Source: a virus
IMG/VR virus record: IMGVR_UViG_3300050343_000256
Location: 1 to 64,000 of that record
Strand: one strand, 5' to 3'
DNA: 64,000 nucleotides
Shown here piece after piece: positions 16,336-64,000 of the stretch. The notes under the pieces were generated by a model that saw only the letters and a program-made list of their open reading frames with translations, ran no database searches and was not told the origin of the DNA. Position 1 is the first letter of the stretch. Each line of letters opens with the position of its first letter. The translations under genes and the position numbers were made by a program.

Positions 16336-17297
16336 CTAGACAACAGCCCATACCCCTCTTACACTTCGCAAGACATGTCTCTCAACTCATGCCCAAAGTC
16401 ACCATCAGCACTCCAGTCAAAGCCATCGAAGTCGAAGCAAATGCAACGACGATCGAAGACGTCTGCAGGGTCTGCAGAGCTAATGGTATCCCATTCAAGC
16501 TCAACTACAACGCAGGCAAACCAATCTACCCGTCGTTCATTTCAAGGGGGCCACGATTGGTTCGTTAGATATTACGCATGGGTAAACATGCAAACCCATC
16601 CACCTGACACGATCATCGTGATCCAAGGGATGGAGGGGGCTTTACATGAATGGCGTAAATACTTTCAACACATATACAAACTAATCAATCATCTAGAAAA
16701 ACAATCATGTCACAAGGAAAAGCTGCATACGAAGTTTTCAAGTTCGTAGGGCATTTCTGCCACGAGAGCCTGCATCATTCGGCGACACCTCAGCTACTTG
16801 AGGTGCTTCACCGAAACGACCCTGAGCAGATTCAAGTAAAAATTGAGACTGAGGACGCGGGTGAGACCTTTGACGCTGTCGTCGAAATGAAACTCATCCG
16901 CGTTGAGGAACACCGTTACCAACGCCCAGATAGCGAGCGCAACGAGCGGGATAGAAAGTACGCAAGACAAAGCAAGAAGCTCATCGCTCAACATGCTCTT
17001 AACGAATTTCATTGATATCGGTATTCTATTCCTACACATATTTGAAGGAATTGTGTACCTGAATTAAATAACTAGGCTGTACAGCCAGAGGGCAGAATTT
17101 GGATAACAGAAAAGCGATCCTTGTACGCACAGACACTCGAGAAGCACTCGACATTAAATGGCGCCCGTGCATTGCTGATGACGAGCTTGAGTATGCCAAC
17201 GCACGTCTTGAGCAATGCCGGATGCCTTACAGGTGGCGGTGGGTTGACAGGCTGACTAACTTAGCAGGAGCAATCAATATGAACGATCTTTCGCACG

Positions 17298-19351: not shown

Positions 19352-19377
19352 TAACTGGATAATTATCTTGCATAACG

Positions 19378-19403
19378 AAAGAGCGCCTCAGGGCGCTTTT
19401 TTG
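19378..19403 (+). terminator. intrinsic terminator
   Basis: AAAGAGCGCC-TCAG-GGCGCTTTTT. Confidence 0.7.
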
Positions 19404-21164: not shown

Positions 21165-21611
21165 ATGGATTCCTTCTCCATGACACTGGATCAGAACCTG
21201 ACCCTGTTCGAGACCAACAAACAAATCCTCAGTGAACTAAAGAACACCAATATCCAACTGCGTCAGGTAGTTATCTACCAACAGCAGACCTGCGAGCAGC
21301 TACATGCGCTCAATCAATTGATGCAGGGGTTTACTAATAACGGTGCCTCCTTAAACGGTTACATCCCTGATGCTTTCGTTTCGGCCTATGTTTCTGTCCT
21401 TGGGCCTGTACTTGCAAAGCGCCTAGATAAAGACGACATTGGTCTAGAGGAACTAATGAAAGGAGCAACGCTTTTAGCAAGGCGATTGCTCGAAGAACTC
21501 AACGCTTACAGGAGTGAGCAAGAAGGTCGAGACGTACTGGCTGATGTGTTGGCAAACTCCAACGATCCTTGGGAGCGACCAGACAACGCACCATCCGAGC
21601 TTGAGTCGTAA
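21165..21611 (+). CDS. hypothetical protein
   Basis: 148-aa helical ORF. Confidence 0.65.
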   Translation: MDSFSMTLDQNLTLFETNKQILSELKNTNIQLRQVVIYQQQTCEQLHALNQLMQGFTNNGASLNGYIPDAFVSAYVSVLGPVLAKRLDKDDIGLEELMKGATLLARRLLEELNAYRSEQEGRDVLADVLANSNDPWERPDNAPSELES

Positions 21612-21614
21612 GTC

Positions 21615-21643
21615 TTGCACTCTGCAAGACAAGCTGCTAATCT
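21615..21643 (+). promoter_or_regulatory. sigma70-type promoter
   Basis: TTGCAC-17 nt-TAATCT; overlaps the GTCTTGCA/TGCAAGAC dyad. Confidence 0.6.
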
Positions 21644-21644
21644 T

Positions 21645-22030
21645 AGGGCCATCGCTACGTATATAGCGGTGACCTAGGCATCAAGGTGTCTGACAATCAC
21701 TGTGATGATCCATGCGCAGTGATTGGGGTTTGGAGTGTCTCACTCTCTTCAAGCCTTGCGAGGATTCAAGGGGCTCGCTCAGACACACGTAGTAGCTTGT
21801 GTAAGTCCTTAAGAATCAACTGCGCGTTGAAGCCATAAGTAGATAGAGGTGGTCAGTCCTCAGCCTTTATCTGCTTTGCTCAAGTAAGTCGCAAACCTTT
21901 TCATAAGTCACCAGCGTTTAGATGACTTACTTAAATAAGCAGACATACTGACAGCGAGAGCCACGCAACCGGCGACAGCAAGGAAACCCATGAGTTTTAA
22001 TGCGGGTAATCAAGGGAATATTCCCTGAAT
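21645..22030 (+). ncRNA. candidate large structured ncRNA (about 380 nt)
   Basis: No ORF of 60 aa or more; at least 8 hand-identified helices including nested ones; upstream promoter. Confidence 0.65.
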
Positions 22031-22077
22031 AATCTAGTGCAACAAAATCGTTACATTCATTAAAAGCTTCGGCGTTA

Positions 22078-22845
22078 ATGGATGAACCAACAAGGTTCGA
22101 AATAGATGGTGCCAGGCACTACCGAACTGATAAGCCTGGAAAAATTTACCCAAGTGTGACGACTATCCTCGGCAAAACTGCGAGCGAACATTCCAAGAAA
22201 ATTCTGGCCAACTGGGGCAAGAAGAACCCCGGCGGAATGGAGAAGGCAGCGGCCAGAGGCACTGCAATACATAAAGCCTGCGAGGATTACATTCGTGGCT
22301 TTCCTGTTGACGTACCAGATGACTACCTGCCGTTCTGGCGAGGCATCAGCAAACACTTGGATAAATACGATTACTTTGTATGGTCTGAGAAACCGCTAAA
22401 GCCAGAGTGGAATTACTGCGTTGGGCATGACGGAATTGCCAGGGTCTGGAGCCACGAATACGGCTTCGTCGGTTGCCCAGATATCGTAGGAGTGAGAAGT
22501 GGGGTTGTTATCCTGGGAGATTTTAAAACCTCAAACCAACCTTATTGCCGGTACTACGGTAAGGAGAATCCAGTATGGAAAGCCAACTTTACTGGCTGGA
22601 GCAAATTAAACAAATGCGGTCTGCAGCTCGGTGCTTACGCCCTTGCGGTCGAGGAGACTTTGGGACTCAAAGTGGACTGTGCGCAAATAATTGTTTCCAC
22701 GCCAGAGATCGATCAGTCGTTCATGTTCCAAGGCGACGAGCTATCTAGGTTTCAAACGAAATGGCTTCAACGAGTCAGGCGCTACAAAGAGCTCAAGGAG
22801 ATCGAGCACCAGGAGGAAATTGAGCGGCAAGCTAATGAAAGCTAG
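22078..22845 (+). CDS. PD-(D/E)XK exonuclease
   Basis: YPSVTTIL; RGTAIH; G.PD; DFKTS; QLGAY. Confidence 0.9.
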   Translation: MDEPTRFEIDGARHYRTDKPGKIYPSVTTILGKTASEHSKKILANWGKKNPGGMEKAAARGTAIHKACEDYIRGFPVDVPDDYLPFWRGISKHLDKYDYFVWSEKPLKPEWNYCVGHDGIARVWSHEYGFVGCPDIVGVRSGVVILGDFKTSNQPYCRYYGKENPVWKANFTGWSKLNKCGLQLGAYALAVEETLGLKVDCAQIIVSTPEIDQSFMFQGDELSRFQTKWLQRVRRYKELKEIEHQEEIERQANES

Positions 22846-28771: not shown

Positions 28772-29396
28772 AATAGCAAGCAACGAAAAATGACTAACCT
28801 ATCTTGCAGAGCGCAAGACTTCTGATTAATGTTGGCTTTACAGGTTGGACATCGAATCCTGCATAAGGTCACCGGCCAGGCAGGGTTTGTGACGTCCGCT
28901 TCTTCAGCCACTGGCTGGAATAAAGGATTAGTCACCGTCACACTTGAAGGTTCAACGCGATCGGAAGATTGGCCTCTAAGCCAAGTCCGCCTTCGCCAAA
29001 GCTCTGAGCAGCTGGCAATTCATGGCGGCGAGTTCATTCCACCAAAGGGTTTTCCCCTAAATACAAAATGAGCACAAAAGAGTCAAGACGACAGGCGCCG
29101 CGCTTTGGTATTGGCGACCGTGTCGTCGAGGTAAAAAACTTTGGCGACCACTGTATTCGGCCAAGTCATCCTGACTTTGAGAAAATTACACGGATGATTC
29201 ACCACCGCCGGCAAGGCTGCGTTGTCGGATTTAAGACAGCGAAGAACACTCGTGGCCATGCCATTAATTATGCGCTTGTGATTTGGGATCAATTCAAAAC
29301 ACCAACTCAACACTGTGTGTCGAGATTGCGCCGAATGGAAGCACCCGAAACTGTCAACGCATGAAATCGATACATTCTCAGCATTAGGAATCACAT

Positions 29397-36859: not shown

Positions 36860-36924
36860 AAGCTAGCAATAGCTATATGGCAACCCTAAATATATTTTTT
36901 AGTGAACAAAATACATCAACACCC

Positions 36925-37050
36925 AAGCTCGATTAGCCTGGGCATTCGACTTAATTCTTCCAGGTGCGGCTAAGGCCCCATCAAAACCTTGAAGTCCTTA
37001 CGGATACTTCACACCTGGAGGCTCAGAGGCTTCGCCACCCCACCGAGCTC
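36925..37050 (-). ncRNA. candidate structured ncRNA (about 125 nt)
   Basis: 9-bp closing stem and nested helices with a GNRA loop; promoter immediately upstream. Confidence 0.65.
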
Positions 37051-37054
37051 CCAA

Positions 37055-37083
37055 AGCATAGCGAGTAAGCATGCATAGTGCAA
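37055..37083 (-). promoter_or_regulatory. sigma70-type promoter
   Basis: TTGCAC-17 nt-TATGCT. Confidence 0.65.
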
Positions 37084-60548: not shown

Positions 60549-61370
60549 TTAAAAAAGACGTTCAGCTTCTGCTGCGTTCTGAAAATGCTTTCTCATTGTT
60601 TCTCGAAGCGTATTCATTCCATTGAGCCCAGGAATGCTTTGAGCTTCTGGGTTTTGCAGCTCACTAGTCTTTTGATTATTGCTCTCGGTAATCCGCCCCG
60701 TGCCGCCCATGATCGCTGCGGCATTCTTTATTGCTGCTGCCTGGTCTGCGCCTGCGGTCATGCCGTTTGCAAGAACGCTATTGGCATCACCTGAACCCTC
60801 ACCTTCGTATGAGTTGCCGAACTTCTTGTTGTATTCACGCATCGCCAAAGCTGGATTGGCCTTAGCCCAAGTCTCCATGGGGCTGCCCTTTTCGTAGCCA
60901 AGGGCCTCGATGATTTCGGGATTAGCGCCAATACCAGCTTGACGTTGCTGAGTATTGAACTGGGCTAGTCCAGCGGCATCACCGCCGTAGCTGTTGGTCC
61001 TGGCAGCTTCGAGGATTGCCTTACCTTCATCAGTACTCCAGATGTCAGCACCTGGGGCGTACTGCTGCCTCATTGAGGTCAGCGCAGAATCACTGGAGTT
61101 GGCATCGTCACTGCGAACTGGAGGTTTTAAATCATTAGGAGGTGCTGGCTTGTCAAATTCAGCAGCTAGACGCTTAATCGCATCCATGTCCAGGTCAGCG
61201 CCCTGGTCGTCACGGCCCGAAGAGTCGAGTACCGCCTCTGTCGGAGAAACCGGCTTAACAGGTTTTTGCCTGTTAGTGCGTGAGTACCCGTCAGGGTTGC
61301 GATTATTTATGCCGCCGCTAATGGCGTCAAAAATTTCACCAAGTAATGTGCGGCTATACCGTTCTGCCAT
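60549..61370 (-). CDS. hypothetical late protein
   Basis: In the late operon. Confidence 0.65.
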   Translation of the reverse strand: MAERYSRTLLGEIFDAISGGINNRNPDGYSRTNRQKPVKPVSPTEAVLDSSGRDDQGADLDMDAIKRLAAEFDKPAPPNDLKPPVRSDDANSSDSALTSMRQQYAPGADIWSTDEGKAILEAARTNSYGGDAAGLAQFNTQQRQAGIGANPEIIEALGYEKGSPMETWAKANPALAMREYNKKFGNSYEGEGSGDANSVLANGMTAGADQAAAIKNAAAIMGGTGRITESNNQKTSELQNPEAQSIPGLNGMNTLRETMRKHFQNAAEAERLF

Positions 61371-63501: not shown

Positions 63502-63757
63502 CAGTGTTGTTATCCCAGAAGCTCTTTATCTCCTGGTTCTCAATCTTTGTCATCGATTGAGCTCAGACTATATCTTCATCCCTGTGGGATGGAGGGCACT
63601 CGTGGATCCATTACTGAGTTTCCTCTCGGGATCTAGTCGTTGAACCTTCCAGATTGTGATCTGGCTTGGCTGCTGATTCCCCGAATGTGTGAAGGGGTCC
63701 CAGCAATTCACCCTCTGTTCACCCGGCTGTTACCAACCGAGGGCGCAAGAATCGTTT
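63502..63757 (-). ncRNA. group I self-splicing intron (256 nt, no homing endonuclease)
   Basis: P AATTGCTGGGA, Q AATCAGCAG, R TCAACGACTA, S AAGATATAGTC; exon ends in U, intron ends in G; removal restores the frame. Confidence 0.93.
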
Positions 63758-64000
63758 ACGCAGGTGCATCATTGCAGTTGGATCTGCAATGCAACGGTAA
63801 TAACCATCAGCAAAGGTTGGGACGTTGCGCTTCCGCATGTCCTTAACAACCTGCAGCAAGTCTGTCTTTACGTCAAACTTGGCTGATTCACCGGCTGCGT
63901 AGTTAAGGAACGGAGCGGCGGATGCCTTGGTTTTGCCGAGTGGGTAGTAATAACCACCAGCATTATCGCTAGCAGGACCAGCAGCTTCTGCTTTGAAAAG
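63758..64000 (-). CDS. major capsid protein, upstream exon (continues beyond the window)
   Basis: 81 open codons ...DMRKRNVPTFADGYYRCIADPTAMMHLR. Confidence 0.85.

What the first reader, a model, noticed from the sequence alone, without database searches (positions are those of the whole stretch)
21615..22030. Large unannotated structured RNA candidate upstream of the exonuclease
Seen: a 460-bp gap without a 60-aa ORF in a dense genome, starting with TTGCAC-17-TAATCT. Hand-found helices: CATCGCTA/TAGCGGTG; GTGTCTGA/TCAGACAC enclosing CAATCACTGTG/CGCAGTGATTG, GGGGTTTG/CAAGCCTT (with GAGTG/CACTC inside) and GCGAG/CTCGC; TCAAC/GTTGA; AGTAGATAGAGG/CCTTTATCTGCT; AAGTAAGTC/GACTTACTT; and a possible pseudoknot between loop GTCAGT (21852) and ACTGAC (21948). 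Many G-U pairs favour a + strand RNA. I see no tRNA, tmRNA, RNase P or group I/II hallmarks. Inference: a new phage ncRNA class; a functional link to the downstream nuclease is speculative.
Basis: partly seen in the sequence, partly recalled or inferred. Interest (0 to 1): 0.8.

Follow-up and report, generated by a model that had tools for sequence, protein, structure and literature searches.

The report
Folded RNA gene in phage hotspot
A marine phage carries, in a fast-changing gap in front of its exonuclease gene, a roughly 200-base RNA with a conserved fold that resembles an uncatalogued RNA family of related phages; what it does is unknown.

Summary
The 466-bp gap (21612-22077) is real and has no ORF of 60 aa or more. 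Only its left part (about 21637-21815, + strand) behaves as a structured RNA. It folds far better than shuffles (z -6.0). A 92.7%-identical relative keeps all 64 pairs of my curated structure. A diverged relative (L047) keeps the fold with 11 pairs changed on both sides. The right 220 bp is not structurally conserved. It holds a terminator-like hairpin and a possible 27-aa minus-strand ORF.

No Rfam family matches. The gap is a hypervariable slot between a conserved 148-aa gene and the exonuclease. In near-identical relatives the slot is empty, holds this RNA, a shorter version of it, or a protein gene. In more distant relatives the slot holds a 200-260-nt RNA family with strong covariation (21 of 27 pairs). 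This scan had already noted that family on other DNA (e1-5846337, e1-6084836).

The window's RNA shares that family's position, strand, closing-helix motif and topology. The family models do not detect it, so I call it a divergent sister class.

The proposed promoter and the link to the nuclease are not supported. Function is inferred only: an accessory, co-transcribed RNA module.

The parts
21165..21611 (+). Upstream flank: conserved 148-aa gene ('p148'). No Pfam or PHROG family.
   Evidence: Homologs stand upstream of the slot in 24 IMG/VR loci and 9 metagenome loci.
21612..21630 (+). Post-ORF hairpin GTCTTGCA-CTC-TGCAAGAC. It belongs to the backbone, not to the RNA.
   Evidence: It is also present in relatives whose slot holds a protein gene or is empty (L044/45, L046). 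The motif TCTTGC-N5-GCAAGA has 5 copies against 0.38 expected, 4 of them 2-31 nt after a + strand stop codon.
21637..21815 (+). Structured RNA core. First hairpin: 21642-47/21673-78 plus 21650-57/21664-71. Stem 21682-85/21796-99 stacked on 21686-93/21779-86. This closes a three-way junction of hairpins 21694-21704/21715-25, 21726-35/21747-56 and 21758-62/21774-78. Variable linker 21787-95. Conserved tail GTGTAAGTCCTTAAG 21799-21813. TAGGGC (21644-49) can instead pair with the tail to form a family-like closing helix.
   Evidence: z -6.01 on + against -3.55 on -. 64 of 64 pairs are kept in L040. 0 of 14 differences fall in the core helices. Model R2 finds L047 at 38.3 bits, E 1.6e-9. 96.1% of cells are paired, 11 pairs change on both sides, 0 of 500 shuffles reach this. 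6 G-U pairs. Frames are broken by a stop in L040 and by 1-2-nt indels in other variants.
21838..21875 (.). 12-bp hairpin AGTAGATAGAGG/CCTTTATCTGCT followed by TTTGCTC. Possible shared end of the + strand RNA and of the minus-strand ORF. Not a consensus terminator.
   Evidence: not called as a terminator; one G-U to A-U change, end pair broken. An RNA-library contig ends at 21884.
21908..21991 (-). Possible small gene: 27-aa hydrophobic peptide MGFLAVAGCVALAVSMSAYLSKSSKRW. No Shine-Dalgarno sequence and no homologs.
   Evidence: The frame, start and stop are kept in L040/L043. Over all variants there are 4 synonymous and 3 conservative changes (my reading). There are no other copies in any locus held and no Pfam or PHROG family.
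22036..22077 (+). Exonuclease-proximal conserved leader with the box TCGTTACATT (22048-22057). It is shared by all slot variants, including empty ones.
22078..22845 (+). Downstream flank: exonuclease gene.
   Evidence: phrog_298, E 2.6e-35. Best cultured relative: Synechococcus phage S-EIVl, 42% identity.

Best explanation
About 21637-21815 encodes a single-copy, + strand, structured non-coding RNA of roughly 180 nt, or about 240 nt if it runs to the hairpin at 21838-21875. It is accessory cargo in a hypervariable slot between the conserved 148-aa gene and the exonuclease gene of an uncultivated marine phage, which is distantly related to Synechococcus phage S-EIVl.

Shown: the fold is real, strand-specific and conserved, and the sequence is non-coding.

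Shown: more distant relatives carry in the same slot an uncatalogued RNA family of 200-260 nt. It has helices P1, P2, P2a, P3, D, E and P7 and strong covariation.

Inferred: the window's RNA is a divergent sister of that family. It has the same slot, the same strand, the same terminal motif (TAGGGC ... GTAAGTCC) and the same topology of a closing stack around three branches.

Inferred mechanism: the RNA has no convincing promoter of its own. It is made rightward as part of the p148-to-exonuclease transcript and folds into a closed multi-branch module. That module either persists as a discrete stable RNA or insulates the two cistrons. The conserved loops and the sequence-conserved closing helix would be contact sites for a protein or RNA partner. 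Because the RNA is dispensable and interchangeable, I expect an accessory role in the early or replication phase, not a core one.
For: Fold of the 5' domain: MFE -85.8 kcal/mol, z -6.01, centroid equal to the MFE; the minus strand gives z -3.55.

L040 is 92.7% identical over 463 nt. It has 14 differences in the 5' domain. None falls in the 120 core-helix positions. My arithmetic from the counts gives about 4e-6 if differences were spread evenly. 64 of 64 curated pairs are kept.

L047: R2 scores 38.3 bits, E 1.6e-9, over the full length. Eleven pairs change on both sides, 96.1% of cells are paired, controls slid by 1-3 columns give 30-41%, and 0 of 500 shuffles reach this.

Non-coding: the 50-aa frame is cut to 27 aa in L040, and variants in DNA and RNA libraries carry 1-2-nt indels.

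The sequence is not an assembly artefact: DNA contigs of runs X5 (705 nt) and X9 (844 nt) bridge the whole gap. All 24 listed runs hold at least part of the stretch (23 DNA, 1 RNA; 21 studies); 8 of them hold half of its sampled words or more.

A 160-nt contig from a metatranscriptome library lies on 21721-21884. This is a weak hint only.

Slot family: 27 pairs, 21 changed on both sides, 95.7% of cells paired, 0 of 500 shuffles. G-U pairs that almost never change to another pair type (10 of 12, 8 of 13 and 12 of 13 distinct sequences) fix the strand. P3 is supported by several pair types.

Shared ends: R1 aligns the two ends of L047 to the family's P1 (7.2 bits, E 0.0038 in 301 nt). RNAalifold on window, L040 and L047 pairs GGGC with GTCC.
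Against: Family model R1 finds nothing in the gap: default filters give no hit, and with filters off the best hit is 2.2 bits. A sequence profile of the family finds nothing either. R2 finds none of the 16 family loci given to it. Kinship with the family therefore rests on position, short motifs and topology.

Only three window-type sequences exist, two of them near-identical, and the alignment counted was fitted to the model.

The X9 DNA variant has T>C at 21697, inside a helix, and no listed partner change; 5 differences were not shown.

Transcription, strand and ends are not shown. The RNA-library contig may be DNA carry-over, and contigs carry no strand.

No promoter or consensus terminator is called. 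Function is entirely inferred.
Confidence: 0.6

Rival explanations
1. Cis-regulatory leader or riboswitch for the exonuclease. The RNA senses a ligand or protein and controls read-through or translation of the downstream gene.
For: It lies upstream of the exonuclease on the same strand in every case. In L002, L003 and L018/19 the family core is followed directly by a strong intrinsic terminator, the classic aptamer-plus-terminator layout. Size and complexity are in the range of riboswitches.
Against: Close relatives keep the exonuclease and its conserved leader without the RNA (L041, L042, L046). In L026, L028 and L029 an unrelated ORF of 83-248 aa lies between the RNA and the exonuclease. Most members have no terminator or sequestering stem. 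The conserved box next to the exonuclease start is independent of the slot's content.
Confidence: 0.15
2. The right half (21880-22035) is a small minus-strand protein gene for a 27-aa membrane peptide, with the hairpin at 21838-21875 as its end. It may be a type I toxin-like cassette, with the + strand RNA as antisense partner.
For: The ORF 21991-21908 is hydrophobic (mean hydropathy 0.84) with a basic tail. Frame, start and stop are kept in L040/L043 and in the DNA variants of X9 and X12. Changes are 4 synonymous and 3 conservative. The RNA helices predicted there are not conserved. The short allele L047 lacks this half, so it is a separable module.
Against: No ribosome-binding site and no called promoter. 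No homolog in any locus held and no Pfam or PHROG family. Seven substitutions are too few (my binomial estimate is p about 0.07). The substitution rate inside the ORF (6 of 81) is no lower than around it (12 of 139). No complementarity or overlap with a demonstrated RNA is shown.
Confidence: 0.25
3. A DNA-level element: a replication origin, a recombination site or the remnant of a mobile insertion beside the replication genes.
For: It lies just upstream of the exonuclease and primase-helicase module. Close relatives differ by presence or absence. A 16-nt direct repeat (81%) stands at 21757 and 22001.
Against: The helices contain G-U pairs, and the fold is much better on the + strand. The family has near-invariant G-U pairs. 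There are no iterons beyond one weak two-copy repeat. The element is single copy in the genome. Compensatory changes preserve the pairing, not the sequence.
Confidence: 0.05
4. Non-functional filler left by recombination in a hotspot, which folds well by chance or by descent from a once-functional RNA.
For: The slot turns over quickly and can be empty. The gap diverges about as fast as its flanks (7-9% against L040). The right half shows no constraint on structure.
Against: Differences avoid the core helices (0 of 14). Hairpins are kept through double changes in L047. The z-score is -6.
Confidence: 0.08

Closest known systems
Uncatalogued 200-260-nt RNA family of the p148-exonuclease slot (my model R1). 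Noted earlier by this scan on other genomes (e1-5846337, e1-5846354, e1-6084836, e1-6086116). I found no paper describing it.
   Same: Same slot, same strand, and a start at or near the upstream stop codon. Terminal motif TAGGGC ... GTAAGTCC able to form the GGGC/GTCC helix. A short stem directly before the tail. A closing stack around three branches. A CGAGGA-type motif in the third branch. Accessory distribution.
   Different: Neither R1 nor a sequence profile detects the window, and R2 does not detect the family. The window lacks the 9-nt UCGG... loop hairpin, the UGCAUGA loop hairpin, the 6-nt CAUCGA loop followed by P7, and P3. It has an extra hairpin between the closing helix and the next stem.
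manA, wcaG, PhotoRC and other orphan RNA motifs of cyanophages and marine metagenomes in Rfam. These names come from the earlier notes and from my own knowledge. I saw Weinberg et al. 2010 (PMC2864571) only as a search listing.
   Same: Structured RNAs of unknown function carried by marine phages in intergenic regions.
   Different: No Rfam 15 family matches the window gap (E<=10), L002 or six family and window-type loci (E<=1).
Candidate structured RNAs of IMG/VR viruses (Fremin et al. 2023, PMC10690425; passages read).
   Same: Same data source and the same kind of object.
   Different: Those candidates are 29-151 nt long, 67 on average, so none can be the whole RNA. Single hairpins of it might be listed in the supplements, which I could not see.
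Coremin / xrRNA-C exonuclease-stalling motif (Dilweg et al. 2019, PMC6546385; abstract and passages read). Earlier notes named it as the model for 'RNA punctuation' between cyanophage genes.
   Same: A short 3-bp hairpin followed by a second helix at a cistron junction. The idea of shielding a message.
   Different: The paper defines the motif by a YGAD tetraloop on the first hairpin and a conserved 10-nt spacer. The family's E hairpin has a 6-nt loop and no spacer before P7. I did not test the window's version beyond this.

Membership tests
Slot RNA family (model R1) | Lies between the p148 homolog and the exonuclease, on their strand | tested here: met
Slot RNA family (model R1) | Closing helix P1: 5' (A)TAGGGC pairs with 3' GTAAGTCC (G-C, G-C, G-U, C-G) | tested here: met
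   TAGGGC at 21644-49 and GTAAGTCC at 21801-08. RNAalifold pairs them. A competing local pairing, 21642-47/21673-78, is equally compatible.
Slot RNA family (model R1) | D hairpin with a 9-nt loop that begins UCGG | tested here: not met
   The window hairpin 21650-71 has a similar stem but a 6-nt loop, CGTATA.
Slot RNA family (model R1) | E hairpin (3 bp, 6-nt loop CAUCGA) followed directly by helix P7 | tested here: not met
   Only the motif GCGAGGA is present (21758-64). There is no P7.
Slot RNA family (model R1) | Significant score with the covariance model or the sequence profile | tested here: not met
   (best 2.2 bits). L047 scores 7.2 bits on its ends only.
Any Rfam 15 family (including manA, group I/II introns, RNase P, tmRNA, 6S) | cmscan match | tested here: not met
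   No tRNA or tmRNA by ARAGORN.
   Present, and both hexamers are kept in L040 and L047 while the spacer varies. But it matches only 6 of 12 consensus positions by my count and is not called by the scan. There are 3 matches against 3.37 expected. The -35 lies in a recurrent hairpin.
Intrinsic terminator (21838-21875) | G+C-rich stem followed by a run of T | tested here: not met
   Not called. The tail is TTTGCTC.
Type I toxin-antitoxin | Small hydrophobic peptide plus an overlapping or complementary antisense RNA, each with its own promoter | tested here: inconclusive
   The peptide is present. No promoter is called, there are no homologs, and no antisense transcript is shown.
Coremin / xrRNA-C | 3-bp hairpin with a YGAD tetraloop, a conserved 10-nt spacer, then a second hairpin (PMC6546385) | tested here: not met
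   The family's E loop is 6 nt and abuts P7.

The most novel reading that the evidence does not exclude
The slot is an arms-race hotspot whose cargo includes large, interchangeable structured RNAs. The R1 family and this sister class would be RNA-based accessory factors. They might be decoys or inhibitors of a host defence or RNA-degrading enzyme, or ligand-sensing switches that gate the recombination and replication genes. That would make them a new functional class of phage RNA rather than passive message punctuation.
Probability: 0.15. Interest if true: 0.8.

Novelty: new variant of a known kind. Interest (0 to 1): 0.55.

Why it matters
Large structured RNAs with strong covariation and no known function are rare, and they have repeatedly led to new biochemistry. 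Here two related but mutually undetectable RNA classes, an empty state and orphan protein genes alternate at one genomic slot in abundant marine phages. The natural alleles amount to a ready-made genetic comparison: same backbone, with or without the RNA. Defining the RNA would also improve annotation of a phage lineage whose early and replication region is almost entirely uncharacterised.

Tried and rejected
Known RNA families. Rfam at gathering score and at loose E-values on the window, the gap and 14 relatives' loci gave nothing in the slot. ARAGORN gave nothing.

DNA similarity. The gap has no blastn match among 50,697 phage records and none to the IMG/VR relatives' slots. tblastx gave nothing.

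Exact-pattern scans of IMG/VR. A 20-mer of the core gave 0 hits. A three-block pattern shared by the window and L047 gave 0 hits. A pattern of the L002-type element gave 5 hits, of which 3 (L011, L013, L015) were chance matches inside G+C-rich coding sequence.

Kinship with the family by models was negative in both directions.

A pseudoknot between the family's D loop and the inside of P7 was considered. It is perfect in L031 but mostly wobble or mismatch elsewhere, so I dropped it.

I first read AAGGA-type motifs as possible protein-binding sites. They turned out to be the 3' strand of helix P3.

The outermost MFE helix 21631-39/21790-98 is rejected, because 3 of its 6 changes in L040 break a pair.

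A host link through genome collections failed. The 25 loci found lie in metagenome bins of many phyla, including archaeal bins, which is probably mis-binning, and none is a cyanobacterial isolate.

p148: no Pfam or PHROG family and no usable Atlas hit.

Slot proteins of relatives: 0 of 9 have a Pfam family and 1 of 9 has a PHROG of unknown function.

RNA run X24: apart from the 160-nt contig and an unrelated 35-nt piece, nothing was laid on the flanks. By the tool's own warning this absence of cover shows nothing. Run shares below 0.2 were not used for habitat.

Papers. Search terms were 's-eiv1 + cyanophage', 'cyanophage / structured RNA / covariation / intergenic' and 'coremin + Xrn1 + pseudoknot'. 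In these listings and in the passages I read, I saw no description of this RNA.

Full report
WHAT IS THERE. The window is part of an 84,978-bp IMG/VR virus record with direct terminal repeats. The gap 21612-22077 separates a 148-aa ORF ('p148', 21165-21611; no Pfam or PHROG family) from an exonuclease gene (22078-22845; phrog_298, E 2.6e-35). A minus-strand helix-turn-helix repressor-like gene and a VapE-type primase-helicase follow. The best cultured relative of the exonuclease is Synechococcus phage S-EIVl at 42% identity, so 'cyanophage' is an inference. All 24 listed sequencing runs, from 21 studies of sea water, hold at least part of the stretch (8 hold half of its sampled words or more). 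DNA contigs of 705 and 844 nt bridge the whole gap, so it is not an assembly artefact.

CHECK OF THE OBSERVATION. The longest ORFs in the gap are 50 aa (+) and 35 aa (-). All listed helices are present. The gap folds at z -4.98 on the + strand and -3.34 on the - strand. Split in two, the left 204 nt give z -6.01 (+) and -3.55 (-). The right 220 nt give only -3.13 (+) and -1.41 (-). No Rfam family, tRNA or tmRNA matches.

THE SLOT. The order p148, gap, exonuclease is kept in 24 IMG/VR loci. The gap ranges from 52 to 1404 bp and its contents are mostly unrelated.

Nine metagenome contigs encode a p148 that is 93-98% identical. Their slots have four states:
- the window's element at 92.7% identity (L040 and L043, identical to each other in the gap);
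- a 223-bp version (L047, L048);
- an empty slot of 83-87 bp (L041, L042, L046);
- a 183-aa orphan gene (L044, L045).

All states share the hairpin after the p148 stop, or a remnant of it, and the exonuclease-proximal leader with the box TCGTTACATT. The element is therefore dispensable cargo. The exonuclease does not depend on it.

THE WINDOW'S RNA. Against L040 the left domain has 14 differences. Eight lie in unpaired positions. Six lie in the outermost MFE helix (21631-39/21790-98), three of which break a pair, so I reject that helix. None lies in the other 120 paired positions. All 64 pairs of my curated structure are kept.

A covariance model built from the window and L040 (R2) finds L047 over its full length at 38.3 bits, E 1.6e-9. 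On the model-fitted alignment 96.1% of cells pair and 11 pairs change on both sides: five in hairpin 21694-21725, four in hairpin 21726-21756, and one each in the base of the first hairpin and in the long stem. Zero of 500 shuffles reach this, and controls slid by 1-3 columns give 30-41%. The caveats are three sequences, two of them close, and a fitted alignment.

Variants seen in DNA and RNA libraries put their changes and 1-2-nt indels in the loop 21763-73 and the linker 21787-95. One change, 21697 T>C, lies in a helix without a listed partner change.

The 50-aa frame is cut by a stop in L040, so the domain is non-coding. Six G-U pairs and the gap in stability between the strands point to the + strand. 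The RNA is single copy in the genome.

THE RIGHT HALF. Of 18 differences from L040, 15 fall in MFE-paired positions and 11 of those break a pair. AAGTAAGTC/GACTTACTT loses 4 of 9 pairs. This half is absent from L047.

It contains a 12-bp hairpin (21838-75) and a minus-strand ORF (21991-21908) for a 27-aa hydrophobic peptide. Frame, start and stop are kept in all variants, with 4 synonymous and 3 conservative changes. That is suggestive but too few to decide. There are no homologs.

A 16-nt direct repeat links 21757 and 22001.

THE PROMOTER. TTGCAC-17-TAATCT is present, and both hexamers are kept in L040 and L047. Three things weaken it:
- the pattern is no more frequent than chance (3 against 3.37);
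- the consensus scan does not call it;
- TTGCAC lies inside a hairpin, TCTTGC-N5-GCAAGA, that recurs after stop codons (5 copies against 0.38 expected), also in relatives without the RNA.

I therefore favour co-transcription with p148.

THE FAMILY NEXT DOOR. The slots of many more distant relatives hold an ORF-free element with shared motifs.
- RNAalifold on nine members gives 27 pairs, 16 with compensatory changes.
- With model R1, 13 distinct sequences give 95.7% paired cells, 21 of 27 pairs changed on both sides, 0 of 500 shuffles, and slid controls of 27-46%.
- A wider search gives 19 hits, 17 of them distinct.
- A further helix, P3, is supported by several pair types.
- Near-invariant G-U pairs fix the strand.

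The architecture is as follows. A closing helix GGGC/GTCC and a second stem enclose a hairpin with a UGCAUGA loop and helix P3. Inside come a hairpin with a 9-nt UCGG... loop, a variable hairpin, a 3-bp hairpin with a CAUCGA loop, and helix P7.

R1 hits 11 of the 20 loci whose exonuclease is 58-79% identical to the window's, plus one more member that I recognised by eye. It hits 0 of the 60 loci at 39-51%. It hits 4 of 12 metagenome-bin loci. L002, L003 and L018/19 end in intrinsic terminators. In L026, L028 and L029 an ORF follows the RNA. No Rfam family matches.

This scan had already noted the same family on the genomes of L030 and L066.

IS THE WINDOW'S RNA A MEMBER? By model tests, no: R1, a sequence profile and the reverse search with R2 are all negative.

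It does share several things with the family:
- the slot and the strand;
- the terminal motif, TAGGGC at 21644-49 and GTAAGTCC at 21801-08, which RNAalifold pairs;
- in L047, a 12-nt identity with the 5' end of L058, and both ends aligned by R1 (7.2 bits);
- a short stem directly before the tail;
- a CGAGGA-type motif in the third branch;
- a closing stack around three branches.

I rate common descent at roughly two in three and call it a divergent sister class.

HOW IT MAY WORK. Shown: a conserved, strand-specific, non-coding fold at a cistron junction, dispensable and interchangeable. Everything else is inferred.

Its complexity and, in the family, the conserved loop sequences argue for a specific partner. 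Its position, the lack of its own signals, and earlier unverified notes of 'RNA punctuation' in related phages argue for a co-transcribed module that is cut out of, or shields, the message. The family's small hairpin does not meet the published definition of the coremin motif.

A riboswitch reading fits the terminator-bearing members but not the empty alleles or the members followed by other ORFs. A DNA-level role is unlikely given the G-U pairs.

One RNA-library contig on 21721-21884 is a weak hint of expression.

NOVELTY AND LITERATURE. Three searches turned up no description of this RNA in the listings and passages I read. The IMG/VR survey of Fremin et al. 2023 reports candidates of 29-151 nt (passages). 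Its supplements were closed, so parts of this RNA may be listed there.

VERDICT. A real structured RNA of unknown function and a new variant beside an uncatalogued family.

Noticed in passing
window 16357-16373, 19366-19382, 21613-21629, 28802-28818, 60758-60774: A hairpin motif TCTTGC-N5-GCAAGA recurs 5 times (0.38 expected, allowing 1 mismatch). Four copies lie 2-31 nt after the stop codon of a + strand ORF. It may be a post-cistron processing or pausing signal.
   Followed up: partly
window 63539-63767 (-): Group I intron: Rfam RF00028, 66.8 bits, E 9e-15.
   Followed up: no
window 22048-22057; L027, L030, L031, L032, L066 just before the exonuclease start: The conserved box TCGTTACATT lies 20-35 nt before the exonuclease start in all relatives. 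In several it is half of an inverted repeat GTTACAT...ATGTAAC, which looks like an operator or a -10 region.
   Followed up: partly
L002:2670-2945, L003:2630-2950, L018:3110-3340: A G+C-richer branch of the slot RNA family ends in a strong intrinsic terminator (stem plus a T run), unlike the other branches.
   Followed up: partly
L004:2653-2775 and L021:648-790; L004:2780-2960: Two relatives share a small conserved ORF in the slot (about 40 aa...EDAGKTD.AFYRR.LAI...). L004 also has a further ORF-free stretch with short motifs in common with L047 (CTAGCTGTG, AGGATGGG, GGGCAC). Neither R1 nor R2 detects it.
   Followed up: partly
window 36920-37083 (-): A second TTGCAC-17-TATGCT site lies after a strong terminator and before a G+C-rich foldable stretch upstream of an ORF. 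Another first-reader note covers it (e1-6128147). I saw the sequence only.
   Followed up: no
window 21757-21772 and 22001-22016; also 21633-21649 versus 22024-22040: A 16-nt direct repeat (81%) links the third hairpin of the RNA to the right end of the gap. By eye, the two borders of the insert also resemble each other (CTGCTAATCTTAGGGC and CTGAATAATCTAGTGC). This may be a trace of duplication or of the insertion event.
   Followed up: no
window 21957-21991: A 604-nt contig of the RNA library X24 matches only these 35 nt (4 mismatches) and continues with unrelated sequence on both sides. The coding segment for the hydrophobic N-terminus therefore also occurs in another gene context.
   Followed up: no
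L130-L133: Contigs of this phage lineage (exonuclease 61-68% identical, all four with the slot RNA) are filed in metagenome bins labelled Poseidoniales and Methanobacteriota archaea. This is probably mis-binning and not a host signal.
   Followed up: no
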